The notes under the pieces are model-generated. The model searched no databases. It saw only the letters and a program-made list of their open reading frames with translations, and was not told the DNA's origin. Positions 1 through 53,707 of a DNA stretch of 64,000 nucleotides are shown piece after piece. The position numbers and the translations under genes were made by a program. Origin of the DNA: Escherichia phage phiLLS; the sequence record NC_047822.1; one strand, 5' to 3'. Numbering within the stretch: the stretch's first letter is position 1; each line of letters starts with the position of its first letter.

Positions 1-1
1 C

Positions 2-1843: not shown

Positions 1844-1862
1844 TGTATACATAGTAAAAAGA

Positions 1863-1894
1863 AACCCCAGTGGACAAAATCCACTGGGGTTTTA
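1863..1894. terminator. bidirectional rho-independent terminator between convergent tail-fibre and early genes
   Basis: ccccagtgga/tccactgggg hairpin flanked by A-run upstream and T-run downstream. Confidence 0.7.
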
Positions 1895-1898
1895 CTAT

Positions 1899-2156
1899 TT
1901 ATTTACTGCCTTCTATAATACCAAGATTATAAATAATTAATAGTAATTTTAACTGCTCATTATCTGTATTAGTACAAAGCTCTACAAAACCTTCAGGATC
2001 CCAGAAAATAACGTTACCTTCTTTATCTATTTTTAATACAATCTTTTCTGGTTCAGTAGTTTTAATCTGATAAGTTGACATATTAGTATCAATACCTACC
2101 ATATTATGATGAACAAAATTACTTGCTTCCTGAGCTTCCAAATCCACCTTCTCCAC
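1899..2156 (-). CDS. hypothetical protein
   Basis: ORF; overlaps dUTPase 3' end, true start may be internal (MVGIDT...). Confidence 0.35.
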   Translation of the reverse strand: MEKVDLEAQEASNFVHHNMVGIDTNMSTYQIKTTEPEKIVLKIDKEGNVIFWDPEGFVELCTNTDNEQLKLLLIIYNLGIIEGSK

Positions 2157-2565
2157 GAATAGTCTCCTCTAGTTCGTCAACGATTTTAAAGTTATGGGTT
2201 GAATAATGTGGGAGTACCACTAGTTGACAAAGTCTCTCGAAATTCTCCAGAGTTTGCATTTCAGAACCGTAATTATAGAGGTTCATCTTAATAGTGCCAC
2301 GATAATCTGAGTCGATCACTCCTGCGGTGTTTGCAATCATCAGATGACGCTTTCCTAAAGAACTACGAGGAACCACCAAACCGAACCAACCTCGCGGAAT
2401 TTCCACCGCGACACCGGTGTCAATCATTAAGGATTTGCCTGGTGCAATAGCCCGTAAATCTGCAGCAGGGTTAGTACCAAAGAATGCTCGCAGATCCATA
2501 CCTGCGGCATCTTCAGAGCCGATCTTAGGCATACAATCTGGATGAGTTAACTTAATTTTAATCAT
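2119..2565 (-). CDS. dut: dUTP diphosphatase (dUTPase)
   Basis: 148 aa; motifs AGMDLRA, GLVVPRSS, TAGVIDSDYRG, RGEGGFGSSG typical of trimeric dUTPase. Confidence 0.9.
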   Translation of the reverse strand: MIKIKLTHPDCMPKIGSEDAAGMDLRAFFGTNPAADLRAIAPGKSLMIDTGVAVEIPRGWFGLVVPRSSLGKRHLMIANTAGVIDSDYRGTIKMNLYNYGSEMQTLENFERLCQLVVLPHYSTHNFKIVDELEETIRGEGGFGSSGSK

Positions 2566-3437
2566 TGTTCTGCAATCTCCAAAATATCTTTTGTAAACTT
2601 ATCTAATACGTCTTGACCTACAGCAGCAATAGCATCCACACAGTAGGTAGGTAAATCAACCAGAATTAGGTTTCGATAAAGCAATTCTTCCGAAGCATTT
2701 AAATTCTGTATATATTTCTGTTTTCCAGGTAGTGGAAGCTGATCAATAATATCCAGAACGTTACCAAATTCACGAATAATATTATATCCGCGTTTTGCCC
2801 CAATACCTTCAACACCCCGGATATTATCCCCTAAATCACCCATAATTGCCTTTAGAGAGATGAACTGCTCTACATCGTCAACATTATGATGCTCATACAT
2901 ATCACGAAGATGATATTCACGACGTGTTGTGAAAGAGAAGCGAGAAACTTTATCAGTTAATAAAGTATCCCAGTCGCCATCGGTAGAAATTAGCCAAACA
3001 TGATCATATAGATGCCCAATCAGCTTAACAATATAAGCTGCCATATCATCTGCTTCTACGCCACGAATAGTGAAAGTTGGGAATGTAGTTTCACACAACT
3101 CGAAAGCATCACGCAGGTACTCAAAGAACTGTTCATCCAGTGCTTTCTCTTCCTCTGTACGTTGTGAGTATTTTTCATCACGATTACCTTTATACTCTGG
3201 TAGATGTTCTAGACGAAATACAGATTTACCTTTATCGCCTAAAACAATCGTAGTTCTTGCGGAGTAGGATTTTGCCAGAGATTGAATAGTTGAAACATAA
3301 CTTGAGGCAAAGGGTTTCTTACTATTATTATGTTTGAATCGAAAACCTAAGTTAGTTCCGTCAACGATCATTAGATTACGACGAGAGGCCATTTCAGCCT
3401 CTTCCTCTTCAATAAATTTTCCCCAGGATTTGCTCAT
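2562..3437 (-). CDS. flap endonuclease / 5'-3' exonuclease (T5 D15-like)
   Basis: 291 aa; LMIVDGTNLGFRF, EADDMAAY, GDLGDNIRGVEGIGAKRG (H3TH) motifs of FEN family. Confidence 0.9.
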   Translation of the reverse strand: MSKSWGKFIEEEEAEMASRRNLMIVDGTNLGFRFKHNNSKKPFASSYVSTIQSLAKSYSARTTIVLGDKGKSVFRLEHLPEYKGNRDEKYSQRTEEEKALDEQFFEYLRDAFELCETTFPTFTIRGVEADDMAAYIVKLIGHLYDHVWLISTDGDWDTLLTDKVSRFSFTTRREYHLRDMYEHHNVDDVEQFISLKAIMGDLGDNIRGVEGIGAKRGYNIIREFGNVLDIIDQLPLPGKQKYIQNLNASEELLYRNLILVDLPTYCVDAIAAVGQDVLDKFTKDILEIAEQ

Positions 3438-3919
3438 TATTTAATTAAGTCCTCAACAGATGCATGATGTAGCCACGGCTCAAACAACCCTATTACAATT
3501 TCCATATCTTTCTTATTTAACACCATATGTGTACGACTCATTAGGTTATCCACCATTGGGTCAGAACTATCTAAAGCAATTAGCCACTGTCCTCTGTCTT
3601 TTTTGAATATTAATGCTGGTTTAGAGTTCATTTGCTCACCTTCACGCGAGCATTGCTGCCACCATTTCTCTAGAGTGGATTCACCAACATTAAATAAATT
3701 GCTTGAAATATTATCATCTTTATACCACTTAACTTCGAAGCAGTATTTACTAATATGTCCACTTTGTGGGGGAAGGTAGATATCACCCTTTAGTCCATGA
3801 CTCTGGCCAAAAGCACCAGAGCCTGGAACACGTTCCCACTCAAGACCTGTACGCTCACGTAGAATATCTCTTACCTGATATTCACCACGTTTACCTTTCT
3901 CTCTACTATCTACAGCCAT
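3437..3919 (-). CDS. putative PD-(D/E)XK-type nuclease (hypothetical)
   Basis: 160 aa; GDIY...FEVKWYK arrangement resembles D...ExK nuclease core; inference only. Confidence 0.45.
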   Translation of the reverse strand: MAVDSREKGKRGEYQVRDILRERTGLEWERVPGSGAFGQSHGLKGDIYLPPQSGHISKYCFEVKWYKDDNISSNLFNVGESTLEKWWQQCSREGEQMNSKPALIFKKDRGQWLIALDSSDPMVDNLMSRTHMVLNKKDMEIVIGLFEPWLHHASVEDLIK

Positions 3920-3922
3920 GTT

Positions 3923-5761
3923 TTATTCTAAGTAGGAAAATCCTTCTGCATCTTTTTTGACAGTAATCTTATGAGCTAATGGATGCGTATGCCCATGAGA
4001 AACAATGATAGAATTTAGACTTTCTTCCTCATTTAATAGCTCAACGAGAGTATCAAGTCCCTTCGTATCAATAAAGCTAATTACTTCATCAAGGAATAGA
4101 AGATTAATATTAACTTTACTAATAGATGTTAACAGCATCCGAATAGCTAACAGGGTTGCTAGATTAATTCGACTTTGCTGACCAGTAGAGCAGTTTTCCA
4201 TACTGGTACGGTTTCCATCATTGAAGATTACTACTTGTAATTTAGTTTCATCTAGTTCAAATCCAAGTGCGAATTTACCACCAGTCATAATAGAAAGATA
4301 TTTATTAATTAGCTCTTCAAATACTTTCACACTATGCTCTAGTTTATATCCAACCAGATTTTTCAATGCAGCAATTAGAATATCGAGATCAGCAACAGCT
4401 TCTGATACTCCATCCAGTTTGGAAGTAATCTCAGTCATTTCTGCTTCTGCTTTCTCAATCTGTTCTAGCTTTGCTTTATATTTTGCATTGGCTAATTCGA
4501 CATTTGCATTATGCTCTTTGGCAATTGCAACCTTAGAACGGCCATCAGCGATTTCCTGTTCTAATTGTCGGATTTGCACCTGTAGGATTTGCACATTGAG
4601 TTCTTCAAAAGAAGCATCACTCATTGAATTTTTGAACTCGTCTCTAGCTACCACTGCTTTATCCAAAGCATCCTTTGCTCTAGTATACGCAACGTACTCA
4701 AGTTGTTCTTTCTTCAACTGTTCTAGCTTAGCTTCAAGAGATTGCTTCTCTTTGAACAGAGGATCATATTCTACTCTAGCCATATCCATTGCTTTTTGAG
4801 CAGCAGTTGTATCCAGATGAGTACCACAAGTAGGACATTCAGTATTTGAAGCCTCTTGCTTGAACTTCTGATAACGTTTCTTAACTTCGATCGCACGTGA
4901 GGTCACAATCGTTAAGTCACGCGTAACACTTGAGATCTCTTCGTTTTGGTCAGTGGGCGCGGGCAAATTTTTGAAAGGCTCGAAAGATTGTTCGGCAACT
5001 TGTACAGCTTTGTCCAAATTACGCAATTTAGTAATATTAGCCTCTTGAGACTTGGCTAATGCCGCCTTAATTTTCGATTCAGTAAGTTCTTGTGCTAATG
5101 GCTCTTCATCAAACTCCGGTACTTCTACAGGTTCCTGCAAAGTTCCTAGATTATTTTTTCCATTAAGGATTTTCGTAATTACAGCCATTTGGCCCTGCAA
5201 ATTATTTAAGGTATTTGCTATTTCTTTACGGTCAGCCTTAATAGTTTCCGACATTTCTTTGTATTGTTCTTGATTGAACAAGTTGACAAGAAAAGCCTTA
5301 CGTGTTGCATCTGTTGCTTTTAGAAAATCTAGGTTGGAACCCACTGATTGATAAATCAGTTTGGTGAATGTTTGAAAGTCACCACCCATAATCTCTTCAA
5401 TCATCTTGTATGTTTGGGTTGCCGTATGTCCACTAATATCTTCCCCATTCTTAATCAACGTTACTTTAGCAGTTGACTTAACTACTTTATGCAGCTCATA
5501 CTCATCATCATCTTTTGAAAAGTAAGCGTGCATATCGTATTCTTTCTTAGGGGCATTCCAAGAGAACAGAGCATCTTTCTTAATACCACGTGAGTTCTTG
5601 TTATAAAATAGTTCTTCAATAACCGTAGCGATGGTGGATTTCCCTAGTCCATTGCCACCAATTAGTTGAGTAACTGGATTCTTATCGAAATGAATTACGA
5701 TGTCCTTACCATAAGACATAACGTTACTAAATTTTAGTGTCTTAATTGTAATCTTTGACAT
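3923..5761 (-). CDS. SbcC/Rad50-like recombination ATPase
   Basis: Walker A GGNGLGKST near N-terminus, long coiled-coil, CPTCG zinc hook, C-terminal LFLDEVISFID signature; start chosen at MSKITIK (track ORF extends to 5842). Confidence 0.8.
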   Translation of the reverse strand: MSKITIKTLKFSNVMSYGKDIVIHFDKNPVTQLIGGNGLGKSTIATVIEELFYNKNSRGIKKDALFSWNAPKKEYDMHAYFSKDDDEYELHKVVKSTAKVTLIKNGEDISGHTATQTYKMIEEIMGGDFQTFTKLIYQSVGSNLDFLKATDATRKAFLVNLFNQEQYKEMSETIKADRKEIANTLNNLQGQMAVITKILNGKNNLGTLQEPVEVPEFDEEPLAQELTESKIKAALAKSQEANITKLRNLDKAVQVAEQSFEPFKNLPAPTDQNEEISSVTRDLTIVTSRAIEVKKRYQKFKQEASNTECPTCGTHLDTTAAQKAMDMARVEYDPLFKEKQSLEAKLEQLKKEQLEYVAYTRAKDALDKAVVARDEFKNSMSDASFEELNVQILQVQIRQLEQEIADGRSKVAIAKEHNANVELANAKYKAKLEQIEKAEAEMTEITSKLDGVSEAVADLDILIAALKNLVGYKLEHSVKVFEELINKYLSIMTGGKFALGFELDETKLQVVIFNDGNRTSMENCSTGQQSRINLATLLAIRMLLTSISKVNINLLFLDEVISFIDTKGLDTLVELLNEEESLNSIIVSHGHTHPLAHKITVKKDAEGFSYLE

Positions 5762-6719
5762 ATTTCGCAGCTCTAGCCAAGATTCTATCAATGTCGCCTT
5801 GAGATAGCTTCTCGACTTCACGGAAGTAAAGTTCAAGTTCACCTAACATATCAAGATCAACAAGATTTAACTTAGCGTCTTTAGTGACTCGATGATTAAT
5901 CTTCTTATCTAATAAATCAGAGTCTTTGATAGACTTTAATTGAACAACGTCACCAGTAACTTCATAGACTACACGATCATAATCACTAGGTTCCATCTCT
6001 TCACCAGCTCCGATTGTTTTACGAATCAGTTGTGGTAAATCACCTAGTTCAATCCATTCTACTTTTAATGTGTCGGTATCAATGATAAAGCAACCATTTG
6101 TACCTTTTGTGCGTTCTCTATGGAACGATGTAGTTAATGGGGATCCTGGGTAGAGAAGTCTAGTAGATCCGATAGTCTGGCTATTAGTATAAGAATGTAA
6201 ATCGCCAGCAATTACAGTATCATAACAGTTGTACTTAGTTAGATCAATTTCTGGTTTTACATGTGGAGGGATTTCACCACGAACATGTGTGAAACATAGT
6301 TTTGATTCAGATGGTTTCCATTTGGATTTATGGATCTCATCATACGGAACAATATCAAATTCAGGGGAACGATATGGTTTGGTAATTACTTCCCACTTAC
6401 CACTCGTTACTTTATTAATAACTCCTGCATAGTGATATAGACATGAAATGGTTTTAGTTAGCATTTCATGATTTCCAGTAAAGATTTTACCTGGATGGTC
6501 AAGTCTTGACATGAACTGTTCAAGCAGTTCTATTTCTTCTGACGACGGATCGGCAACATCAAGTATATCACCACCAGCAATATGAAGATCACAGTTATGA
6601 TTATGGAATATATCATTTAACCGTTCTCCTAGCATCAGGAAGCGACGCTTCTGCCATTCCTTTGGAACTTTATCTTGTCCTAGTTTGATATGATGATCAG
6701 CACTAAATAATATTCTCAT
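5742..6719 (-). CDS. SbcD/Mre11-like nuclease (calcineurin-like metallophosphatase)
   Basis: MRILFSADHH, GGDILD, GNHE, GDLH motifs. Confidence 0.85.
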   Translation of the reverse strand: MRILFSADHHIKLGQDKVPKEWQKRRFLMLGERLNDIFHNHNCDLHIAGGDILDVADPSSEEIELLEQFMSRLDHPGKIFTGNHEMLTKTISCLYHYAGVINKVTSGKWEVITKPYRSPEFDIVPYDEIHKSKWKPSESKLCFTHVRGEIPPHVKPEIDLTKYNCYDTVIAGDLHSYTNSQTIGSTRLLYPGSPLTTSFHRERTKGTNGCFIIDTDTLKVEWIELGDLPQLIRKTIGAGEEMEPSDYDRVVYEVTGDVVQLKSIKDSDLLDKKINHRVTKDAKLNLVDLDMLGELELYFREVEKLSQGDIDRILARAAKYVKDYN

Positions 6720-6721
6720 TG

Positions 6722-6750
6722 GTTAAAAAGAAAGGGGCCGAAGCCCCTCT
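6722..6750 (-). terminator. rho-independent terminator
   Basis: aggggccgaagcccct hairpin with T-run on minus strand. Confidence 0.6.
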
Positions 6751-6755
6751 ATTTA

Positions 6756-7529
6756 TTAATCGTCCAGATCGCTTGCAGCTTCTGAGTCAATACCTTTCTG
6801 GGAACCTGCATTGCTATTACCAGATTTGGCATCATCATCTTTATTCTCACGACCTTCCATGAAGGCTAGAATTGCTTCTTTCTGCTCTTCATAGGTAGGA
6901 ACCGGATAGGTTTGTTCCAGAGAAGGAACTTTTTCGAACTTAATGATGTCGCCATCTTCATCACACATAGCTTCACCGATCAGATCGACATCCGCAGCAT
7001 ATTGCTTAGATTCCGCACTGTTAGGATCTTGCAGCTTAATCTGGAACTGCATAGCAGCAATCTGCTGTACATCATACTCAGTATCGAAACCTTTACCTTT
7101 TTTCTCGATAGAAATATCAATATCAAACGGAGTTGCCAGGTTCAACTGCTTCATGATAGACTGGATGCCTTTCAGAATAGTAGCCTTGACTTCCATTACT
7201 TTCAGTTTGTTATCAGAACGGTCAATAACAAAGGCGATATAGTTTTTCTTAGGTTTCAGCGGAACACGATTACCATCTTTATCCAGCTCTTTCTCGAAGA
7301 AGCCCATCTCATGAACCGGATCAGCTTTACCACGAACAAAGCTCTCTTTGTCACGGTTAAAACGGAGACATTCGAAAGGAGCTACGCTACCCTCTTTATT
7401 AGTCAGCCAATAGACATAACGTGGAAGAACACCAGAAACGATACGAACACGAGTGATACCGTTGTTGAACTTCAGGAATTCGATTTTATCGTTAGAACCG
7501 CCAGTAGTTTCGCCCCAAGACTTAGCCAT
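6756..7529 (-). CDS. hypothetical protein (T5 D11-like), acidic C-terminus
   Basis: 257 aa ORF in replication module. Confidence 0.6.
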   Translation of the reverse strand: MAKSWGETTGGSNDKIEFLKFNNGITRVRIVSGVLPRYVYWLTNKEGSVAPFECLRFNRDKESFVRGKADPVHEMGFFEKELDKDGNRVPLKPKKNYIAFVIDRSDNKLKVMEVKATILKGIQSIMKQLNLATPFDIDISIEKKGKGFDTEYDVQQIAAMQFQIKLQDPNSAESKQYAADVDLIGEAMCDEDGDIIKFEKVPSLEQTYPVPTYEEQKEAILAFMEGRENKDDDAKSGNSNAGSQKGIDSEAASDLDD

Positions 7530-7806
7530 ATTTTATTTCCTCTTTAAAGATTAATTTCGATTTGTTAATTGCGATTAGTGGGTTAGTGTCGATTACTAAA
7601 CGTGGTATCCATACTGGAACATATTGTATGTCCAAACTAGGATCGTTTGTAAACTTGTATTCGGCATAATTTCGTAGACTTAAAATTCCTAGATATTCTG
7701 CCAGTTGTCTATTAGACAATTTATTTGGATTATCAACAATAGTTGACTCATTTAAAATGAATGAGGAACCGACCAATAATTGATGAGCATCAGGCTCTGT
7801 AAGCAT
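7522..7806 (-). CDS. hypothetical protein
   Basis: 94 aa ORF downstream of promoter module. Confidence 0.4.
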   Translation of the reverse strand: MLTEPDAHQLLVGSSFILNESTIVDNPNKLSNRQLAEYLGILSLRNYAEYKFTNDPSLDIQYVPVWIPRLVIDTNPLIAINKSKLIFKEEIKYG

Positions 7807-7913
7807 TCTTTTGAATAGCTTAATAATTAGGTCGGAATTTCCTCTAGCTAGTAAGTATAGCTTTTCATAATCGAAGAATTTAATTTTTGTTTTCTCCTCG
7901 AATTTATGTATAT

Positions 7914-7943
7914 ATTATACTAGATTTCGAGAGAATTTAGCAA
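7914..7943 (-). promoter_or_regulatory. sigma70-type early promoter (conserved module), minus strand
   Basis: reverse-complement gives TTGCTA -35, ~17-18 bp spacer, TATAAT -10, ACATAAATT downstream; second copy at ~7990-8030. Confidence 0.6.
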
Positions 7944-8026
7944 CTAAAATTTTTATTTTTCTGCTTCGGACTTTCTTATCAATCCGAAACTTTCTCTCTC
8001 AAATTTATGTATATATTATACATCAT

Positions 8027-9379
8027 TTATGAGCTATTGCCAAATGCAATTTTAGCTAATTGAACTGCTTTCTCAGGAGTCATGGTAATAGTTTTCCACC
8101 CGTTATTACGATATACTGCCATACGCCCAGAAGCCTGTCTTAGTCCAGTGCCCCCTTTCATAATTAGATCTACAACAATAGGGTCGAGTTTACCTTCAAC
8201 AATACGTTGAACACGACCTGCAAGCTGTTCAATGAGAGATTCATTATTAATAAGACTTCCCATTATTAAACAAGATAGCTCATTAAGGGAAATACCTTCA
8301 GAGAAGATACTCTGAGCTGCTGCAAGTACACAAGGACCACCTTTTGCTATATCTTCTTGAATTTTTAATCGGTCATCCAAGTGGGTTGCCCCTATAATTT
8401 CATATGTTGTAACACCACGCTGTGCAAGAGCTTCTAGTACTGTTTGGATTAACTCTGTTCTATCACTTACAATGAGTACTTTATGCCCCATATTCACATA
8501 TAAATGTGCTAGGTTTATAATAGTTTCTCGATATTCAGGATGATTATACACATCGTTAGCACGTAATGCCCATGGTACGTTTTGGTTTCCTGATAACTCA
8601 ACAGGTACGGAGTACCTATGGATTGTAGGTGCAACAGTATTATTAACCGGCGGACTAAATATCTTATATCCAAAGAAATCTTTGAACATAACTTGTAGAC
8701 CGTCTTTCCGTTTTAATGTGCCGGATAGTCCAATTTTATAGCGAGCACAGGATATTTCTAGGAAGTTAGTGAAAGTTGTAGCCACACAATGGTGAACTTC
8801 ATCAACTATAACAGTACCGAATACTTTAGAAAGATTATTCGCATGTTTATTCACTGTTTGAATATTACTGACCACAATTGGTGGATCAATGTTATATTTC
8901 CCAGAACCTATTATGCCTGGTTCAAACCCAAACCATTTACGAACTTCTGCTGCCCACATCTCACGAATAGATGTATTTGTACAGATTACCAAAGTTTTCT
9001 GGCCAAATTTATATGCAAGTGCAAGGGCTAGGATAGTTTTGCCAAATCCAGGCTTACCGTTAATAATACAGGTATCATCGCATTCTTCGTATATTGGAAG
9101 TTGATCTTCTTCACGCAGCTTGAACTTAGGTTTTGGTATATCTACCGGAGCTAATGTGCGTTTATCGACTAATTCGTATTTTACTCCTTTAGCATCTAAT
9201 AAGTCCAGACGCGTAATAGGAATCCACTTAATCTCTTTAGCAACAACACCACTATTCTTATACATAATAGGGTATTTACTAGTCATTGTCTCAATGTGAT
9301 AAGTGGTTTGCTTACTACAATAATCCCAAAGTTCATCATCGGGCTTGAAATAGGCTTTATTAGATATAACAACCTTCAT
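8027..9379 (-). CDS. SF2 DNA helicase (T5 D10-like)
   Basis: 450 aa; Walker A GKPGFGKT, DEVHH box, helicase C-terminal motifs QLAGRVQR. Confidence 0.8.
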   Translation of the reverse strand: MKVVISNKAYFKPDDELWDYCSKQTTYHIETMTSKYPIMYKNSGVVAKEIKWIPITRLDLLDAKGVKYELVDKRTLAPVDIPKPKFKLREEDQLPIYEECDDTCIINGKPGFGKTILALALAYKFGQKTLVICTNTSIREMWAAEVRKWFGFEPGIIGSGKYNIDPPIVVSNIQTVNKHANNLSKVFGTVIVDEVHHCVATTFTNFLEISCARYKIGLSGTLKRKDGLQVMFKDFFGYKIFSPPVNNTVAPTIHRYSVPVELSGNQNVPWALRANDVYNHPEYRETIINLAHLYVNMGHKVLIVSDRTELIQTVLEALAQRGVTTYEIIGATHLDDRLKIQEDIAKGGPCVLAAAQSIFSEGISLNELSCLIMGSLINNESLIEQLAGRVQRIVEGKLDPIVVDLIMKGGTGLRQASGRMAVYRNNGWKTITMTPEKAVQLAKIAFGNSS

Positions 9380-43339: not shown

Positions 43340-44135
43340 AACAGCGAGCCGATTACGCTGAACTTGTCTTAATGTAAGATGCGTCGAGCACTAAGATTCG
43401 TTGAATAGAGTCGGTGGGTTAGTTGTAAAACTAGTACACAGGGGGCGGCAATCCCGGTTAGTGGCTAGAACGTGTAAAATGAGGCGTCTGAAACCTCTCC
43501 CCTAAACTCTTCTCTAATTTATAAATAGTGGGGTGTGGAAATCACTTATGTAGTAACACTGCCGTCCTAGTATAATTGGTATTATCAAGCCGTAACCGGT
43601 GGAAGATGTAGGTTCGAATCCTACGGTCGGTAAGAACTGGATAACTGATGCTTTTAACGTAAAAGCTTCCGAGGTTAGTTGCGCACTGCCTAAACCACGC
43701 GGTAGTTGGTTCCAGACTAACCAACCAGTCTGCTGAATAGTTTTATTACGATTTAACTATGTCCAGGCTAAAGAAGAACTTTAGAAGGTATTCTAGGATA
43801 GTGAAGTTCTTTCTCCATATCGGAGTAGTTTTTCAAGCTATCCACAAAGTGGGAAATGCTGACATGAGAGATGTCACTAATGGTGCACAATAGCACAGGT
43901 AATTCGCGATAACTCCTGTTGAGTAGCAGCAAAAGGCGGGAAGTCATGACCCCAAGCCTAACCGAGTCCTCAATATACCGCAGGACATAACCACTAAGTC
44001 ACCCTGACTTAAACTGGAAAATAATAGACGTTACTGTATTTTGTCTTGAAATACTTAATGAGTGAGACTTATGACTCTCCCGGTATCGTCTGTATTTTTA
44101 AGAGTTTTTTACGAGAGTTCTTAAAAATACTTAAA
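43340..44135 (+). ncRNA. candidate non-coding RNA region (promoter-driven, ORF-free, tRNA-like fragments)
   Basis: ~800 bp with no ORF above ~26 codons; internal T-arm-like GTAGGTTCGAATCCTAC at 43608-43624; several hairpins. Confidence 0.3.
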
Positions 44136-47839: not shown

Positions 47840-47914
47840 GGTTCTCAAGCTCATATGGTATGAGCACCCGGCTCATAACCGGAAGGTACGTAGGTTCGAA
47901 TCCTCGGGGAGCCA
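47840..47914 (+). tRNA. tRNA with CAT anticodon (Met/fMet/Ile2)
   Basis: acceptor and D stems pair; anticodon loop CTCATAA; CCA encoded; T-stem imperfect. Confidence 0.65.
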
Positions 47915-49323: not shown

Positions 49324-49335
49324 CCAATTAATAAT

Positions 49336-49403
49336 TGGGGTACGCATAGGTTGCAAATGGGCCTCCAAAACCCATGAAAAGGTTTCGAATACCTTTACCC
49401 CTG
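49336..49403 (+). tRNA. tRNA-like element (possible pseudo-tRNA; 9-nt anticodon-like loop)
   Basis: T-arm AAGGT/ACCTT with TTCGAAT loop and CCA, but 5' acceptor mismatch and no consistent cloverleaf. Confidence 0.3.
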
Positions 49404-49412
49404 CCAAAATTT

Positions 49413-49484
49413 GCACCTTTAGCTGAGATGGATTAGCGCTTGCCTGAAGAGCTTGAGAGGTTCGTTCGATTCGAACAGGGTGCA
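49413..49484 (+). tRNA. tRNA-Phe (anticodon GAA)
   Basis: acceptor, D and T arms pair; anticodon loop CTGAAGA; CCA encoded; two U-U mismatches in anticodon stem. Confidence 0.65.
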
Positions 49485-49504
49485 CCAATTTGAAGGAGCT
49501 GCTG

Positions 49505-49777
49505 ATGCATACTGAAAACTTCTTTATTTACTGCGCGGATAAGTCGCTGAAACGTAGAATTAACAAAGTCTATCATTATCGTGTTAGTCAACAGCCTTAT
49601 GTATATGCTTTTGACGGTGATCACATTCCACTAGAACAATTATCTTGTGATTACATGATATTGAAGAACTTTGACGAGACAAAGATCTCAAGCGTTCATA
49701 ATCGACAGAATCCATTAACGTGGAAATATAAGAAGAAAAAGAAAGGCATCAAATTCTTAAAAAATGTAGTTGCTTAG
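49505..49777 (+). CDS. hypothetical protein
   Basis: 90 aa ORF between tRNA genes. Confidence 0.45.
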   Translation: MHTENFFIYCADKSLKRRINKVYHYRVSQQPYVYAFDGDHIPLEQLSCDYMILKNFDETKISSVHNRQNPLTWKYKKKKKGIKFLKNVVA

Positions 49778-49798
49778 TTTCCAAAAGTTCTGTATAAT
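49770..49798 (+). promoter_or_regulatory. sigma70-type early promoter
   Basis: TTGCTT-17-TATAAT. Confidence 0.5.
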
Positions 49799-49846
49799 AA
49801 TTACATAAATTGAACTGGAGAAGCAACATGACAGAATAAGATAAAC

Positions 49847-49919
49847 CGACCGTTGGCTGAATGGCTTAGGCGAAGGATTGCAAATCCTTTTTATGTGAGT
49901 TCAAATCTCATGCGGTCGT
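49847..49919 (+). tRNA. tRNA-Cys (anticodon GCA)
   Basis: acceptor cgaccgt/gcggtcg, perfect anticodon stem AAGGA/TCCTT; CCA encoded. Confidence 0.8.
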
Positions 49920-49943
49920 CCAAATTACTAAAGGAAAGAAGTA

Positions 49944-50462
49944 GTGCATACAAAAGTTTTTGATAGTTTGGTAAAGAAAGGCATTGTTACTAATAAGCCT
50001 TTCTGTATAACCGCAGAACTAATCCAAAGATTTATGGAAGAATATATAAATCTTTCAGGAACTAATGGTAATACCAAAAAGAATACAAATACTATGTATT
50101 CGAGAAAACTTGCCGCACTTTCCTTTATAAAGTTTAAGCAGGAAAATAAACTTCCTATTTCTGAAGGTTTTGTATACTGTATTAGTAATCCTGCATGGAA
50201 AAATCAGTATAAAATAGGTATGAGTCAAAATCCAAAAGAGAGATTAGCTCAATATCAGACCTATTCCCCCTATAGGGATTATAAATTAGAGCATTGGTCG
50301 TTTTGGTTTGACAAACGAAAAGGTGAAAAACTAATTCACCAGTATTTCAAAGATTTAAAAGAACATGAGTGGTTTAGTATAAATTCTAGGGATCTTAGTA
50401 AATATCTAGAACGTATTAACTCTAGTTCTGACTTATATGGTTCCTTAGCTCTAATTGGTTAG
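49944..50462 (+). CDS. T5orf172-domain (GIY-YIG-like) protein
   Basis: 172 aa; GFVYCISNPAWKNQYKIGMS...EHEWF pattern; GTG start with AAGGAAAG SD; 3' end overlaps next tRNA. Confidence 0.55.
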   Translation: MHTKVFDSLVKKGIVTNKPFCITAELIQRFMEEYINLSGTNGNTKKNTNTMYSRKLAALSFIKFKQENKLPISEGFVYCISNPAWKNQYKIGMSQNPKERLAQYQTYSPYRDYKLEHWSFWFDKRKGEKLIHQYFKDLKEHEWFSINSRDLSKYLERINSSSDLYGSLALIG

Positions 50463-50513
50463 AGCGGCATCTTGTTAAGTTGAGGGTTGCTGGTTCGAAT
50501 CCAGCAGGAACCG
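50439..50513 (+). tRNA. tRNA-Asn (anticodon GTT)
   Basis: perfect acceptor ggttcct/aggaacc, D and T stems; loop TTGTTAA; CCA encoded. Confidence 0.7.
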
Positions 50514-50618
50514 CCAAATTCTGTGTAGAGTTAAGTAAACCGGTAGCCAACCAGCTATCATTGCTGACATCGAATTCAGCCACAGATACCATTTTCATTA
50601 ATAACTGAGGAAATAAGC

Positions 50619-50804
50619 ATGTCCAAGAATGTAATTGCGCAGCTAGAAGTTCATCGTGATAGCACTATCAACAATATTGAAGTTGAAAAGAAATACATCG
50701 AAGAACTTAAACACGATATACTAATAAGTCTCAATCGTCTTAATGTACGAAAAGAGTTTCTTAAAGAACTTAATGCAGCTATTGAAAAACTCAAAGCTGA
50801 GTAA
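50619..50804 (+). CDS. hypothetical protein
   Basis: 61 aa ORF with GAGGAAA SD. Confidence 0.45.
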   Translation: MSKNVIAQLEVHRDSTINNIEVEKKYIEELKHDILISLNRLNVRKEFLKELNAAIEKLKAE

Positions 50805-50813
50805 ATGAATTAT

Positions 50814-50887
50814 GCGACCGGGGCTGGCTTGGTAATGGTACTCCCCTGTCACGGGAGGGAATGTGGGTTCAAATCCCATCGGTCGCG
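50814..50887 (+). tRNA. tRNA-Asp (anticodon GTC)
   Basis: perfect acceptor gcgaccg/cggtcgc and anticodon stem; CCA encoded. Confidence 0.8.
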
Positions 50888-50915
50888 CCAAATTAATTTA
50901 GTATGAGAATATACT

Positions 50916-51263
50916 ATGCGTAATGCCAAAGAAGAGCTGTTACTTGCCTTAAAAAATACTAATTCTGAAGTTAAATGTATTAAAATAGAATTCGGGTATT
51001 ATGGGGATAAAAAAGTTTGGGTATTGCCTTTAGGTTACACAGAAGAAGATATTGAGGATTTTCTTAATAACCTAGACTTTAAATATGACTCTGGGTACGG
51101 TGGACAATTACTTTATGGTAATGTATGGTTTGCCGATGGAACTTGGCTAGAACGTGGAGAATATGATGGTGCTGAGTGGTGGGAATACAAAGCCACACCA
51201 GCAATTCCAGAGGAATGCCGAACAATTAATGGTGAAGTAGATAATACTTTACGGTTAAACTAA
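50916..51263 (+). CDS. hypothetical protein
   Basis: 115 aa ORF. Confidence 0.5.
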   Translation: MRNAKEELLLALKNTNSEVKCIKIEFGYYGDKKVWVLPLGYTEEDIEDFLNNLDFKYDSGYGGQLLYGNVWFADGTWLERGEYDGAEWWEYKATPAIPEECRTINGEVDNTLRLN

Positions 51264-51385
51264 TAAAATTTCAGTGCAGAACACGGAGCTAGCAATTCGG
51301 AAGTGCTGACTCATGATAAGCTGCCTATGTACTTGCGAAGCGGTCGTGTCCAAGACTCGGACTCTTGCACTGAAAACAATCAAAC

Positions 51386-51506
51386 ATTCTAGCGTGGTTG
51401 ATGGGGAAACCAGCTTGGCTAGGGCAGAAGCTCGTTCGATTCGAGTGAAAGAATGGTTCTCGTAAGTCCGCACAAGTGATAACAGGTTCGAGTCCTGTCT
51501 AGAATG
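51386..51506 (+). ncRNA. tRNA-like structured RNA (~120 nt) with perfect 7-bp acceptor-type closing helix and T-arm
   Basis: attctag (51386-92) pairs with ctagaat (51499-505); T-arm ACAGG-TTCGAGT-CCTGT; internal hairpins; no CCA. Confidence 0.35.
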
Positions 51507-51692
51507 ACATATTCTGGAGATTCTATGGATTATGAAGAGTTAGATAAATTAGCTGATACATTATCAGAACTATCTGATAATGTAGTAATAAAAGATTCTA
51601 GGATAGACAGTTTTATTGCTGATTATCGTAATGGTATTATCTCTAGGCAAGAACTAGTAGATAAAACTTATCAATATTTAAAGGGAAAGTAA
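51504..51692 (+). CDS. hypothetical protein
   Basis: 62 aa ORF. Confidence 0.4.
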   Translation: MTYSGDSMDYEELDKLADTLSELSDNVVIKDSRIDSFIADYRNGIISRQELVDKTYQYLKGK

Positions 51693-51712
51693 ACGAAAGT
51701 TTACTTATTATG

Positions 51713-51810
51713 TAGGTTCCGATAGATCGGCGGGTCTATTCTGGCATTTAAGAGAAGTCTCGCAAACTTCTTTGTCAGCCGTGGGGTTGGTAGCCTCCAG
51801 GTGGCCTACA
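51713..51810 (+). ncRNA. tRNA-like element (~98 nt) without canonical T-loop
   Basis: terminal helix gtaggtt/ggcctac; internal anticodon-like hairpin AGAAGT-CTCGCAA-ACTTCT. Confidence 0.3.
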
Positions 51811-51837
51811 CAATAAGTAAATTTATTAAAAATTCAT

Positions 51838-51866
51838 TTGCTATTCTGCTTTATTATCTGTATAAT
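51838..51866 (+). promoter_or_regulatory. sigma70-type early promoter
   Basis: AAAAATTCATTTGCTA-17-TATAAT. Confidence 0.6.
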
Positions 51867-51899
51867 ATATTTTATAAAGTGAAGAGAAGGAAAGCAAAA

Positions 51900-52058
51900 T
51901 GAAACACAAGATAGCTCAAGTTTTTATGGCATTATGGTGTATGCCAATAGCTATAACAGCATTTAATCTAGATACTTTTACTATAGAAGAAAAATGTATC
52001 GGATTAGTTAGCGGTTTTAGTATGCTGGGCTTATCTTTGCTGTGGTTAAAGAAATAAT
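51900..52058 (+). CDS. hypothetical small membrane protein
   Basis: 52 aa ORF (MKHKIAQVFMALWCMPIAITAF...) with AAGGAAAG SD; below track cutoff. Confidence 0.4.
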
Positions 52059-52061
52059 ATT

Positions 52062-52136
52062 CTCCGTGTAGCTCAGTTTGGCCAGAGCGTTTCGTTTGGG
52101 GCGATAGGGTCGGGGGTTCAAATCCTCCCACGGAGA
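52062..52136 (+). tRNA. tRNA-Pro (anticodon TGG)
   Basis: perfect acceptor ctccgtg/cacggag, D stem GCTC/GAGC, T-loop TTCAAAT; CCA encoded. Confidence 0.75.
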
Positions 52137-52145
52137 CCAAACAAT

Positions 52146-52220
52146 TGCGGGTTAGATCTCTGGTAGAGATCGCTAGTCTCATAAGCTAGAAAGAGGTAGG
52201 TTCGATTCCTGCACCCGCTT
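52146..52220 (+). tRNA. tRNA with CAT anticodon (Met/fMet/Ile2); 1:72 mismatch
   Basis: anticodon stem CTAGT/GCTAG, loop CTCATAA; CCA encoded. Confidence 0.7.
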
Positions 52221-52538: not shown

Positions 52539-52559
52539 ATTTATATAAATTGATGCGAA

Positions 52560-52870
52560 AATAGCTGCCTAGATACCAGGTGTATGACGTCTACACTAGC
52601 AGAGCTACCGAAAAAGAGATCCTCAGGATAAACGTCGTAGCAAAATTAGTCTGGTATCCATCAATTTAGTTCACTAAGGTATTAGCTCGACCTAGGACTG
52701 GCTGCCAAAAAGCACGATCCCTACGATTCGGGAGAAGTTCTAGATTAGTCCACTAGATTCAGCGGCAACTGAATAGTGTATTGGGTTTGCGAGATGACGC
52801 AGTTCCTTCCGCTCGAAGCGAAGGTGCTGTAGTTACGCCGAGCTAATAGCCTTAGTAAACTAAAGAATTT
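52560..52870 (+). ncRNA. candidate structured non-coding RNA (~310 nt, ORF-free, downstream of promoter)
   Basis: long imperfect hairpin 52562-52608; further hairpins near 52800-52825; no ORF, no canonical tRNA fold. Confidence 0.3.
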
Positions 52871-53144: not shown

Positions 53145-53232
53145 GGAAGAGCAAATCGAATTGGCGACGAAAACCGCTTGGAAAGTGGCTGACTGGTAAA
53201 ACGGCTTGAGAGTTCAAATCTCTCCTCTTCCG
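53145..53232 (+). tRNA. tRNA-Ser (anticodon GGA), class II
   Basis: perfect acceptor ggaagag/ctcttcc, T-arm GAGAG/CTCTC, long variable region; CCA encoded; anticodon assignment tentative. Confidence 0.65.
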
Positions 53233-53247
53233 CCAAACAATTTATAT

Positions 53248-53339
53248 GGTAGGTCAATCCAACGGCTGGCGCTGGACTCCGACTTGAAATCGGTTGATCG
53301 TAGTGATACGGTGTAAGGGTTCGATCCCCTTACCTACCT
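53248..53339 (+). tRNA. tRNA-Ser (anticodon TGA), class II
   Basis: perfect acceptor ggtaggt/acctacc, T-arm AAGGG/CCCTT, loop CTTGAAA; CCA encoded. Confidence 0.7.
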
Positions 53340-53342
53340 CCA

Positions 53343-53478
53343 AATCTTGGAATATGCCGGAATTGGTAGACGGGACTGCCGAATAGGTTTACTAGGAACA
53401 TCCACTCCTAGAAATATACCTTAAAAGCGGTTGAGTTAAATGGTCTAACTCATGAAGGTTCAAATCCTTCTATTCCTT
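53343..53478 (+). ncRNA. tRNA-like element / possible pseudo-tRNA with insertion
   Basis: canonical T-arm GAAGG-TTCAAAT-CCTTC and acceptor-like 3' strand; upstream D-loop consensus AATTGGTAGAC; no consistent cloverleaf. Confidence 0.3.
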
Positions 53479-53707
53479 GATACATCAATGGCTCAAAGTG
53501 TAACGGTGCTATTTGATGCACTTGGAAAGACTTTCCCGACATGCGTTCGGGGGTAAGCTTCTGAGGCTAGAATAGAAGAGTTTCTGGGAGCCGCCACAAT
53601 CGAAAATTCGTACTCGTCTTGAGCTGCGTGCAATAGGAGATAACTTGATTAGTATTCTAGAACATGCTAATTGAGGATGGTTTCGCTAACCCTGCGAGTT
53701 TTCAATT

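What the first reader, a model, noticed from the sequence alone, without database searches (positions are those of the whole stretch)
51386..51506. 120-nt tRNA-like RNA with a perfect acceptor-type helix and T-arm but an oversized body
ATTCTAG at 51386-51392 pairs perfectly with CTAGAAT at 51499-51505, and the latter directly follows a canonical T-arm (ACAGG-TTCGAGT-CCTGT). The enclosed 100 nt forms several hairpins rather than D and anticodon arms, and no CCA is encoded. This may be a tRNA with a large insertion or a tRNA-mimicking ncRNA. Further tRNA-like fragments lie at 49336-49403, 51713-51810 and 53343-53478.
Basis: seen in the sequence. Interest (0 to 1): 0.5.

Follow-up and report, generated by a model that had tools for sequence, protein, structure and literature searches.

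The report
T5 phage tRNA-like RNA2
This is the already annotated but functionally unexplained "RNA2" of T5-like phages: a tRNA-shaped RNA whose anticodon loop is replaced by a conserved 55-base module carrying a second T-arm, and the same design turns up in tRNA gene clusters of unrelated phages and some bacteria.

Summary
ATTCTAG (51386-51392) pairs with CTAGAAT (51499-51505), directly after a canonical T-arm, and no CCA is encoded (G-ACA).

The window is a T5-like phage. The element is 98% identical to "rna2 / RNA2, tRNA-like RNA with unknown functions" in GenBank AJ604531, so it is already known as an entity.

Only the anticodon loop is replaced, by a 55-nt module (51418-51472). The module holds a second T-arm with the invariant loop TTCGATT, an invariant AATGG and a TAA bulge.

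Homologues occur in about 480 T5-like phage records. They also occur in Klebsiella Sugarland-like phages, Acinetobacter T4-like phages, a 46-kb phage contig, and large metagenome contigs that are probably bacterial, always among tRNA genes.

Across 23 distinct sequences, 93% of cells pair and 26 of 32 pairs show changes on both sides. No Rfam family matches, and ARAGORN finds nothing with default settings.

Most likely it is a non-decoding tRNA mimic, cut out and stabilised by the tRNA processing machinery, that displays a second tRNA-elbow-like module. What the module binds is unknown; I suggest a factor that recognises tRNA elbows, but that is inference. An intron-containing tRNA is unlikely.

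The parts
51386..51392 (+). Acceptor-stem 5' strand (AUUCUAG)
   Evidence: Pairs perfectly with 51499-51505. All 7 pairs show changes on both sides across the family.
51395..51412 (+). D arm: stem 51395-51399/51408-51412, loop GAUGGGGA with the GG expected of a tRNA D loop
   Evidence: Stem covaries: UGGUU/AACCA, UGGUG/CACCA, CGACU/AGUCG. Recovered by RNAalifold.
51413..51417 (+). Anticodon-type stem, 5' strand (GCUUG)
   Evidence: Pairs with 51473-51477. 98% of cells are paired and all 5 pairs covary.
51418..51472 (+). Conserved 55-nt module that replaces the anticodon loop (J1a-P3-P4-T2 arm-J2-P4'-UAA-P3'-J3)
   Evidence: This is the most conserved part of the family. Its invariant columns include GG (51423-51424), G-UUCGAUU-C, AAUGG, UAA, CC and A51472.
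51422..51428 (+). P3 (GGGC) and P4 (AGA), 5' strands
   Evidence: P3's innermost pair covaries C-G/U-A (8/9 sequences). P4's pair 51428-51460 appears as A-U, U-A, C-G or G-U. G51422 covaries perfectly with C51471 (G-C 17, A-U 6). The alternative MFE-type register is poorly supported.
51431..51445 (+). Inner second T-arm (T2): CUCG-UUCGAUU-CGAG
   Evidence: 100% of cells are paired. Three of 4 pairs covary (CUCG/CGAG, ACGG/CCGU, AUGG/CCAU, CCCG/CGGG, GGAG/CUCC). The loop and its closing G-C are invariant in 23/23.
51446..51459 (+). J2 single strand UGAAAGAAUGGUUC, with invariant AAUGG at 51452-51456 (proposed D-loop-like partner of the T2 loop)
   Evidence: AAUGG is invariant in 23/23. Its contact with the T2 loop is inference: both partners are invariant, so covariation cannot test it.
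51460..51472 (+). P4 3' strand (UCG), invariant UAA bulge (51463-51465), P3 3' strand (GUCC), J3 (GCA)
51473..51481 (+). Anticodon-type stem 3' strand (CAAGU) and 4-nt variable loop (GAUA)
51482..51498 (+). Canonical T arm (T1): ACAGG-UUCGAGU-CCUGU
   Evidence: 96.5% of cells are paired and 4 of 5 pairs covary. It gives the weak Rfam tRNA match.
51499..51509 (+). Acceptor 3' strand (CUAGAAU), discriminator G51506, tail ACA (no encoded CCA)
   Evidence: Relatives encode GCCA (EH2) or UCCA (Sugarland); others have ACUA, ACUC or UCAA.

Best explanation
SHOWN. The element is the RNA2 gene of T5-like phages (Demerecviridae). It has a full tRNA shell: a 7-bp acceptor, a D arm with GG, a 5-bp anticodon-type stem, a 4-nt variable loop and a T arm. 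The 7-nt anticodon loop is replaced by a conserved 55-nt module. The module consists of two short stacked helices (P3, P4), an invariant UAA bulge, a second T-arm with an invariant UUCGAUU loop, and an invariant AAUGG strand. It lies inside a tRNA operon with no terminator between the flanking promoters. It belongs to a covarying family that is always found among tRNA genes in unrelated phages and in some large, probably bacterial contigs.

INFERRED.
(1) It is transcribed with the neighbouring tRNAs and cut out by the tRNA machinery: RNase P at A51386, and 3' trimming with or without CCA addition after G51506. The tRNA shell makes it stable.
(2) Having no anticodon loop, it cannot decode.
(3) The T2 loop, capped by AAUGG, forms a second tRNA-elbow-like knob at the end where the anticodon would be. 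The RNA therefore resembles two tRNA cores joined through their anticodon stems.
(4) It acts as a non-decoding tRNA mimic that binds, and so titrates or recruits, a host or phage factor that recognises tRNA T-arms or elbows. Candidates are a tRNA-targeting defence nuclease or a tRNA processing or modification enzyme.

Aminoacylation is probably not needed. The 3' tail is not conserved, and the Acinetobacter-phage versions lack a convincing acceptor stem.
For: Identity:
- 98% identical and syntenic to the rna2 feature 'tRNA-like RNA with unknown functions' of AJ604531.
- The window is 99% identical to Salmonella phage LVR16A, a T5-like phage.

Structure:
- In a manual alignment of 23 distinct members, 93.3% of cells pair and 26 of 32 pairs change on both sides. 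None of 500 shuffles reach these values, and slid controls give 27-46% paired.
- RNAalifold independently recovers the acceptor, D, anticodon-type, T2 and T1 helices.
- An unbiased scan of all column pairs ranks these same helices on top.

The shell is tRNA-like and the module is specific:
- The covariance model scores members at 68-102 bits, ordinary tRNAs at 30 bits or less, and finds one copy per locus.

Distribution:
- 483 phage records match, 416 of them nearly full length.
- 14 Acinetobacter phage records match.
- There are further phage and metagenome contigs. L010 carries portal and Mu-F genes. L048 has 47 tRNAs in 8.3 kb, and the RNA lies next to tRNAs everywhere.

Operon context:
- AJ604531 places promoters P14b upstream and P13a downstream. 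No terminator-like site lies on the + strand in 49400-52200.

Acceptor dispensable:
- Tails vary: GACA, GCCA, UCCA, ACUA and others.
- In the Acinetobacter phages no acceptor stem could be aligned, and the Acj9 copy starts inside the annotated upstream tRNA.
Against: No expression, end-mapping or binding data were available to me, and AJ604531 itself says the function is unknown.

The single-sequence fold is no more stable than shuffles, and the MFE does not form T2.

The elbow-like fold of the module rests on invariant nucleotides, so covariation cannot test it. RNAalifold offers a competing pairing of the UGG of AAUGG with CC(G/A) at 51468-51470.

No conserved protein neighbour was found that could name a partner.

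The T5 tRNA region is a deletion hotspot and dispensable in the laboratory (PMC12483538), so any function is conditional.

The alignment was built by hand with the structure in mind, which inflates the pairing statistics somewhat.
Confidence: 0.55

Rival explanations
1. It is an intron-containing tRNA, Arg(CCG) in T5-likes and Trp(CCA) in some relatives. The roughly 48-nt insert is removed to give a decoding tRNA.
For: ARAGORN with the intron option calls the window 'tRNA-Arg(ccg), 48-nt intron at 33/34', but only at a relaxed threshold. At the default threshold it calls L047 and L070 Arg(ccg) and L048 and L062 Trp(cca). The neighbouring RNA1 (53348-53478) is called tRNA-Leu(taa) with a 40-nt insert at the same loop position and an intact CUUAAAA loop. 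CGG is a rare codon in E. coli (own knowledge).
Against: - After removal, the loop would be G-U-CCG-C-A or x-U-CCA-U-A, with a pyrimidine at position 37, where tRNAs carry a purine (established tRNA knowledge).
- The putative anticodon CC is base-paired in P3, and its neighbour covaries with G51422.
- The 'intron' is the most conserved part and the 'exons' the least, the reverse of what introns show.
- The Acinetobacter phages already have a tRNA-Trp, and their versions lack an acceptor stem.
- The only bacterial and phage tRNA introns known to me are group I introns of about 200 nt or more.
Confidence: 0.07
2. It is a cis-acting processing or 'punctuation' element. A tRNA-shaped signal directs RNase P and other nucleases to cut the polycistronic transcript and free the neighbouring small ORF mRNAs, and the excised RNA has no function of its own.
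For: It sits between ORF trn2.10 and ORF trn2.10.1 in one operon. The ribosome-binding site of the downstream ORF starts about 10 nt after the RNA. tRNA-like shells are RNase P substrates (established knowledge).
Against: A plain tRNA or a minimal acceptor/T-arm helix would do this job. It does not explain an invariant 55-nt module kept across unrelated phage families. The downstream neighbour is not conserved: it may be an ORF, tRNA-Gly, an HNH endonuclease gene, tRNA-Pro, tRNA-Ser or tRNA-Asp.
Confidence: 0.1
3. It is a decaying tRNA pseudogene or a recombination scar in a region rich in homing endonucleases, with no function.
For: The tRNA region carries HNH homing endonuclease genes and is a deletion hotspot. 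The encoded CCA is lost, and some T5-like variants have acceptor mismatches.
Against: It is kept in about 480 phage records and in distant phage families. Compensatory changes occur in seven helices, and the single-stranded motifs are invariant.
Confidence: 0.03
4. It is a tmRNA-like or otherwise aminoacylated RNA that enters the ribosome, with the module filling the decoding site or encoding a short tag.
For: It has the acceptor plus T-arm design of a tmRNA tRNA-like domain. L047 has G3-U70 and A73, the alanine identity set. One Acinetobacter phage (W16) has an RF-1-domain ORF just downstream.
Against: - ARAGORN finds no tmRNA.
- No reading frame is conserved through the module. The ATG/TAA frames differ between the window, EH2 and Sugarland (read from the alignment).
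- Acceptor identity and the 3' tail are not conserved, and the acceptor is absent in Acinetobacter phages.
- The RF-1-like ORF is not a conserved neighbour and lacks GGQ.
Confidence: 0.03

Closest known systems
RNA2 (gene rna2) of the T5 / BF23 / phage 5 tRNA gene region, GenBank AJ604531 ('tRNA-like RNA with unknown functions')
   Same: The same gene. It is 98% identical over 125 nt, in the same position between ORF trn2.10 and ORF trn2.10.1 / RNAIV, on the same strand as the tRNAs.
   Different: Nothing of substance: three substitutions in the T arm, two of which affect its outermost pair. The database entry gives no structure, family or function. The complete T5 genome record AY587007 does not annotate it.
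Canonical tRNA (Rfam RF00005)
   Same: A 7-bp acceptor, a D arm with GG, a 5-bp anticodon-type stem, a 4-nt variable loop, a GUUCGAGUC T arm, and a location in a tRNA operon. Ordinary tRNAs match the family model at 20-30 bits.
   Different: It has no 7-nt anticodon loop and no usable anticodon. A 55-nt structured module stands in their place, and CCA is not encoded. Rfam gives 18 bits against a threshold of 29, and ARAGORN is negative.
Phage T4 species 1 RNA (rnaC), a stable RNA in the T4 tRNA cluster
   Same: A phage-encoded RNA of about 140 nt with an acceptor-like stem and a canonical T arm. It is encoded at the end of a tRNA cluster and its function is unknown.
   Different: It has no inner UUCGAUU hairpin or AAUGG/UAA motifs. 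It scores 25.6 bits on the family model, the level of any tRNA. It is an analogue, not a member.
tRNA-like domain of tmRNA and other tRNA mimics (YrlA Y-RNA-like RNAs, viral 3' tRNA-like structures)
   Same: A tRNA-shaped acceptor/T-arm part fused to a non-tRNA body. Such RNAs are processed by tRNA enzymes (established knowledge).
   Different: It has no tag ORF. It keeps a full D arm and an anticodon-type stem. Neither Rfam nor ARAGORN reports tmRNA or YrlA.
Engineered 'tRNA scaffold' RNAs (own knowledge: Ponchon and Dardel 2007), in which the anticodon arm of a tRNA is replaced by a cargo RNA to make it stable in E. coli
   Same: The same architecture: an intact acceptor, D and T part with the cargo grafted onto the anticodon stem.
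   Different: RNA2 is natural. Its cargo is itself T-arm-like and conserved.

Membership tests
T5-group RNA2 (AJ604531 rna2) | Sequence identity to the annotated rna2 feature | tested here: met
   98% column identity over the 146-column alignment that spans the feature.
T5-group RNA2 (AJ604531 rna2) | Same position and strand in the tRNA gene region (after tRNA-Asp and ORF trn2.10, before RNAIV and promoter P13a) | tested here: met
   Feature table of AJ604531, the tRNA map of the window, and the RNAIV alignment.
T5-group RNA2 (AJ604531 rna2) | Exists as a discrete RNA in infected cells | not testable with these tools
   No expression data are held. The record's note says only 'tRNA-like RNA with unknown functions'.
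Canonical tRNA | 7-bp acceptor stem directly continuous with a 5-bp T stem and a 7-nt UUCRANY T loop | tested here: met
Canonical tRNA | D arm with a conserved GG in the loop | tested here: met
   51395-51412. The stem covaries.
Canonical tRNA | 7-nt anticodon loop with U33 and a purine at 37 | tested here: not met
   55 nt lie between the strands of the anticodon-type stem. Even after the ARAGORN 'intron' is removed, position 37 is C or U.
Canonical tRNA | Reaches detection thresholds (Rfam gathering score 29 bits; ARAGORN default) | tested here: not met
   18 bits, a partial match. No ARAGORN call.
Canonical tRNA | 3' CCA, encoded or added, and aminoacylation | tested here: inconclusive
   The window encodes G-ACA. 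EH2 and Sugarland encode CCA. Post-transcriptional addition and charging cannot be tested here.
Intron-containing tRNA | Removing the insert restores a standard anticodon loop, and a splicing mechanism is available | tested here: not met
   The restored loop has a pyrimidine at position 37. The 'anticodon' is inside helix P3. The insert is the most conserved part. No splicing mechanism for such an insert is known to me in bacteria or phages.
tmRNA | tRNA-like domain plus a tag reading frame and pseudoknots | tested here: not met
   ARAGORN's tmRNA search is negative. There is no Rfam tmRNA match and no conserved frame.
T4 species 1 RNA (rnaC) | Homology beyond the generic tRNA shell | tested here: not met
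   rnaC scores 25.6 bits on model R1, the same as ordinary tRNAs. The module motifs are absent.
Any Rfam 15 family | Match at or near a gathering score | tested here: not met
   Only chance-level hits were found.

The most novel reading that the evidence does not exclude
RNA2 may be the founding member of an undescribed, widespread class of natural 'tRNA-scaffold' RNAs with no Rfam family. In this class a tRNA shell displays a conserved second T-loop 'elbow' where the anticodon should be, like two tRNA cores fused through their anticodon stems. The class has spread among tRNA clusters of T5-like, Sugarland-like and Acinetobacter T4-like phages, other phages and bacterial tRNA arrays. It would act as an RNA decoy or inhibitor of a tRNA-recognising host factor, for example a tRNA-cleaving anti-phage defence nuclease.
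Probability: 0.2. Interest if true: 0.7.

Novelty: already known. Interest (0 to 1): 0.45.

Why it matters
Phage tRNA clusters are now known to counter tRNA-cleaving defence systems. T5's own tRNAs rescue infection from PARIS and similar systems (PMC11464382, PMC13096335). Yet the 'tRNA-like RNAs of unknown function' in the same clusters have been ignored since they were annotated.

This work shows that RNA2 is not a T5 oddity. It is a covarying family shared by unrelated phages and by bacterial tRNA arrays, and the functional part is the conserved module rather than the acceptor end. That gives a concrete, testable candidate for a non-coding player in the conflict between phages and hosts over tRNAs. 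It also provides a natural example of the tRNA-scaffold design used in RNA engineering. For genome annotation, it explains a recurrent gap of about 120 nt in T5-like genomes that is often mis-called as a hypothetical protein.

Tried and rejected
- **Single-sequence folding**. z is about 0 and the MFE misses the inner T-arm, so it was not informative.
- **Rfam** at gathering and at permissive thresholds, on the window and on a distant member. Nothing was found.
- **ARAGORN**, default and with intron and tmRNA options. It returned only a relaxed-threshold 'tRNA-Arg(ccg) + intron' call, rejected for the reasons given under the rival explanations.
- **First collection pattern**. It had the wrong spacing (8 N) and missed the window's own type. 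Corrected.
- **Plain MAFFT alignment**. It mis-registered the inner T-arm by one base in EH2-type sequences. I replaced it with a hand-segmented, N-padded alignment.
- **MFE-type register for helix P4** (AGAA/UUCU). Only 67% paired, with the covarying column unpaired in 14 of 22 sequences. Rejected.
- **Mini-ORF or tag peptide in the module.** The frames are not conserved. Rejected.
- **Archaeal-type bulge-helix-bulge splice motif** around P3. The 4-bp helix flanked by J1a and the UAA bulge is superficially similar. However, J3 lies opposite J1a, and the implied cut sites would not restore a 7-nt loop. Rejected.
- **Ancestry of the shell.** Comparison with 71 tRNAs gave about 0.6 identity to many isoacceptors and no clear parent.
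- **Search for a conserved protein neighbour**. None was found.
- **Literature searches**. No paper in the held library describes RNA2 or the module.

Full report
**What the window is.**
The window carries 21 tRNA genes by ARAGORN, on the + strand between 44.1 and 56 kb. Rfam adds two more, at 43561-43632 and 47840-47914. The stretch 51200-51900 is 99% identical to Salmonella phage LVR16A and matches 507 T5-like phage records. The window is therefore the tRNA gene region of a T5-like phage (Demerecviridae).

**The observation.**
- ATTCTAG lies at 51386-51392 and CTAGAAT at 51499-51505.
- ACAGG-TTCGAGT-CCTGT lies at 51482-51498, directly before the 3' strand.
- G51506 is followed by ACA, not CCA.

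ARAGORN and Rfam report nothing here. On the isolated stretch, Rfam's tRNA model gives only an 18-bit partial match to the T arm and acceptor, against a threshold of 29. The MFE fold is no better than shuffled sequence (z = -0.02).

**It is already annotated.**
It aligns to 51386-51509 at 98% identity and in the same gene order.

- 49336-49403 lies where the record annotates tRNA-Trp. The anticodon loop CTCCAAA is shared, but the sequences are otherwise only 76% identical.
- 51713-51810 is RNAIV, 'stable RNA with unknown functions'.
- 53343-53478 is RNA1, 'tRNA-like RNA with unknown functions'.

The complete T5 genome record leaves the RNA2 position unannotated. Several other records place a hypothetical protein there.

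**Anatomy.**
In 5' to 3' order:
- Acceptor 5' strand, 51386-51392, then two bases.
- D arm: stem 51395-51399/51408-51412, loop GAUGGGGA.
- 5-bp anticodon-type stem, 51413-51417/51473-51477.
- 4-nt variable loop, 51478-51481.
- T arm, 51482-51498.
- Acceptor 3' strand, 51499-51505.

Only the anticodon loop is missing. In its place are 55 nt (51418-51472):
- a 4-by-3 internal loop (GCUA / GCA);
- helix P3 (GGGC/GUCC);
- helix P4, with two solid pairs;
- an invariant UAA bulge between P4 and P3 on the 3' strand;
- a second T-arm, CUCG-UUCGAUU-CGAG (51431-51445);
- a 14-nt strand, UGAAAGAAUGGUUC, that contains an invariant AAUGG.

**The family.**
BLAST with the element alone finds 483 phage records, 416 of them nearly full length. 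Identity runs from 100% down to 76% in T5-like phages, with partial matches in Klebsiella Sugarland-like phages and Acinetobacter phages. The Acinetobacter hits are T4-like phages such as Acj9, W16 and AB1I1M-1.

A pattern built from the inner module was run against three collections and the hits were sorted into members and false positives. It found further members:
- in IMG/VR: T5-like, Sugarland-like and Acinetobacter-type contigs, and L010;
- in metagenome contigs: L047, L048, L062/L081, L066, L070, L073;
- in one GTDB bin that looks like a T4-like phage contig (167 kb, 14 tRNAs): L101.

Context of the new members:
- L010 is a phage (portal, Mu-F-like and DUF2213 genes).
- L062 lies next to a chemotaxis receptor gene, so it is probably bacterial.
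- L048 sits in a 1.46-Mb contig, inside an array of 47 tRNA genes in 8.3 kb.
- In every case the RNA lies among tRNA genes.
- In L066, L070 and L073 the shell looks like an ordinary tRNA: L066 has the D arm AGCTCAGTGGTTAGAGCT, and L070 and L073 have perfect 7-bp acceptors.
- In the Acinetobacter phages no acceptor stem could be aligned. The RNA is simply the spacer between two tRNAs, but the D-loop-like GG, the anticodon-type stem, the module and the T arm are all kept.

**Test of the structure.**
MAFFT mis-registered the inner T-arm. I therefore segmented 23 distinct sequences by hand, checked the segmentation of 16 of the 17 full-shell sequences against the real sequences, and corrected a typing slip in the seventeenth (L048). 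I then loaded the alignment with N as padding.

- On the proposed structure, 93.3% of cells form standard pairs and 26 of 32 pairs have changes on both sides. The covariation score is 0.664 against 0.164 for shuffles (0 of 500 reach it). Sliding the partner by 1-3 columns drops pairing to 27-46%.
- The inner T-arm is paired in 100% of cells. Three of its four pairs covary, and its loop and closing G-C are invariant.
- RNAalifold, given only the alignment, recovers the acceptor, D, anticodon-type, T2 and T1 helices.
- A scan of all column pairs puts these helices at the top. It adds one pair I had mis-assigned: G51422 with C51471 (G-C in 17 sequences, A-U in 6).
- The MFE-type alternative for P4 is poorly supported.

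Caveats: the alignment was made by hand with the structure in view. The fine pairing around P3 stays ambiguous, because RNAalifold prefers pairing the UGG of AAUGG with CC(G/A) at 51468-51470.

**Shell versus module.**
A covariance model of the family scores members at 68-102 bits. Ordinary tRNAs score 14-30 bits by skipping the module. T4 rnaC scores 25.6 bits. There is one member per locus.

The shell is thus generically tRNA-like and the module is what defines the family. The shell shows no clear isoacceptor parent. Acceptor sequences and 3' tails differ widely (GACA, GCCA, UCCA, ACUA, ACUC, UCAA), while the module's single-stranded motifs are invariant.

**How it most likely works.**
In AJ604531 the gene lies between promoters P14b and P13a, together with tRNA-Cys, tRNA-Asn, RNA3, tRNA-Asp and small ORFs. 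In the window I find no terminator-like site on the + strand between 49400 and 52200, and the P13a-like promoter lies at 51838-51866. The RNA must therefore be cut from a polycistronic transcript.

Its shell has what RNase P and the 3' trimming enzymes need (established tRNA biology), so it should accumulate as a stable RNA of about 121-124 nt. This is inference.

Without an anticodon loop it cannot decode. The conservation pattern points to the module as the working part, and to the acceptor end and charging as dispensable.

The module has the connectivity of a tRNA core without an acceptor stem:
- P3 and P4 correspond to an anticodon stem.
- The 2-nt linker corresponds to a variable loop.
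- T2 corresponds to the T arm.
- AAUGG corresponds to the D-loop GG that caps a T loop.

On this reading the whole RNA resembles two tRNA cores fused through their anticodon stems, with a second 'elbow' at the far end. This is a structural inference that I could not test.

My best guess for function is a non-decoding tRNA mimic that occupies a factor recognising T arms or elbows. Given that T5's tRNAs counter tRNA-cleaving defences (PMC11464382; the discussion in PMC13096335), a role as decoy or inhibitor in that conflict is attractive but unproven. The T5 tRNA-rich region is a deletion hotspot and dispensable in the laboratory (PMC12483538), which fits a conditional, accessory function.

**Rivals.**
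- **Intron-containing tRNA.** ARAGORN with the intron option reads the window, at a relaxed threshold, as tRNA-Arg(CCG) with a 48-nt intron. It reads four relatives, at the default threshold, as Arg(CCG) or Trp(CCA). I consider this unlikely for four reasons. Position 37 would be a pyrimidine. The 'anticodon' is inside helix P3. The 'intron' is the most conserved part. No splicing route for such an insert is known to me in bacteria or phages.
- **Pure processing signal, decayed pseudogene, tmRNA-like RNA.** Each fails to explain the conserved module, or is contradicted by the covariation or by the lack of a conserved reading frame.

**Comparison with known families.**
- It is the RNA2 of the T5 group.
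- It is not a canonical tRNA, because the anticodon loop and the detection thresholds are not met.
- It is not a tmRNA, not a member of any Rfam family, and not a homologue of T4 rnaC beyond the tRNA shell.
- It has the same design as the engineered tRNA scaffolds used to stabilise RNAs in E. coli (own knowledge).

**Verdict.**
As an entity the finding is already known, annotated in 2004. Two points were not found in any database or paper searched here: the breadth of the family, and the nature of the insert as a conserved second T-arm module. The function remains open.

Noticed in passing
window 53348-53478 (RNA1 of AJ604531): ARAGORN with the intron option calls this tRNA-Leu(taa) with a 40-nt insert at loop position 33, at the default threshold. 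An intact CUUAAAA anticodon loop follows the insert. Differences from phage 5 in the insert hairpin and in the long variable arm are compensatory. The window therefore holds a second tRNA-shaped gene with an insert at the same place as in RNA2, but the insert is unrelated.
   Followed up: partly
window 51269-51375: A long hairpin lies just upstream of RNA2, closed by UUUCAGUGCA / UGCACUGAAA (MFE -32.6 kcal/mol, z = -1.9). AJ604531 does not annotate it. Its 3' part is conserved in many T5-like genomes.
   Followed up: partly
window 49329-49406; 53145-53235; 53248-53338; 47840-47914; 43561-43632: Five tRNA genes are missed by default ARAGORN. They are a non-canonical tRNA-Trp(CCA) found by neither tool, two tRNA-Ser genes (GGA and TGA) found only at a relaxed threshold or as weak tRNA-Sec-model hits, and two found by Rfam only.
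   Followed up: partly
window 50517-50590, 52550-52870, 53480-53707, 51713-51810: Further non-tRNA stable or tRNA-like RNAs are annotated in AJ604531 (RNA3, RNA 2H, RNA I, RNA III, RNAIV), all of unknown function. 52660-52870 shows a long-range helix (UUAGUUCACUAAGGUAUUAGCUCG ... CGAGCUAAUAGCCUUAGUAAACUAA) in the raw sequence.
   Followed up: no
L013 (Acinetobacter phage W16) 1628-1858: Directly downstream of the RNA2 homologue is a 76-aa ORF annotated as an 'RF-1 domain peptide chain release factor'. Its sequence has GKH where the catalytic GGQ would be. It is not a conserved neighbour in the other phages.
   Followed up: no
L048 (metagenome contig Ga0308158_10000004, 1.46 Mb) 1-8283: An array of 47 tRNA genes in 8.3 kb, with many duplicates, holds one RNA2-family member at 6023-6141.
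   Followed up: no
window 50814-50890; L004, L006, L010, L014, L047, L070: A tRNA-Asp(GTC) gene lies next to or within two genes of the RNA2 homologue in T5-like phages and in L010, L047, AB1I1M-1 and L070. In L010 it is the only tRNA found in the 9.2 kb held for that locus. This may be chance.
   Followed up: no
L012 (Acinetobacter phage Acj9) 1501-1731; L003 543-695: Annotated 'hypothetical protein' CDSs overlap the RNA2 homologue in several phage records. They are probably mis-annotations of the RNA gene.
   Followed up: no
L012 270-342, L101 7053-7127: ARAGORN calls tRNAs with a CTA anticodon (amber-suppressor type, labelled 'tRNA-Pyl') in the Acinetobacter T4-like phage tRNA clusters.
   Followed up: no
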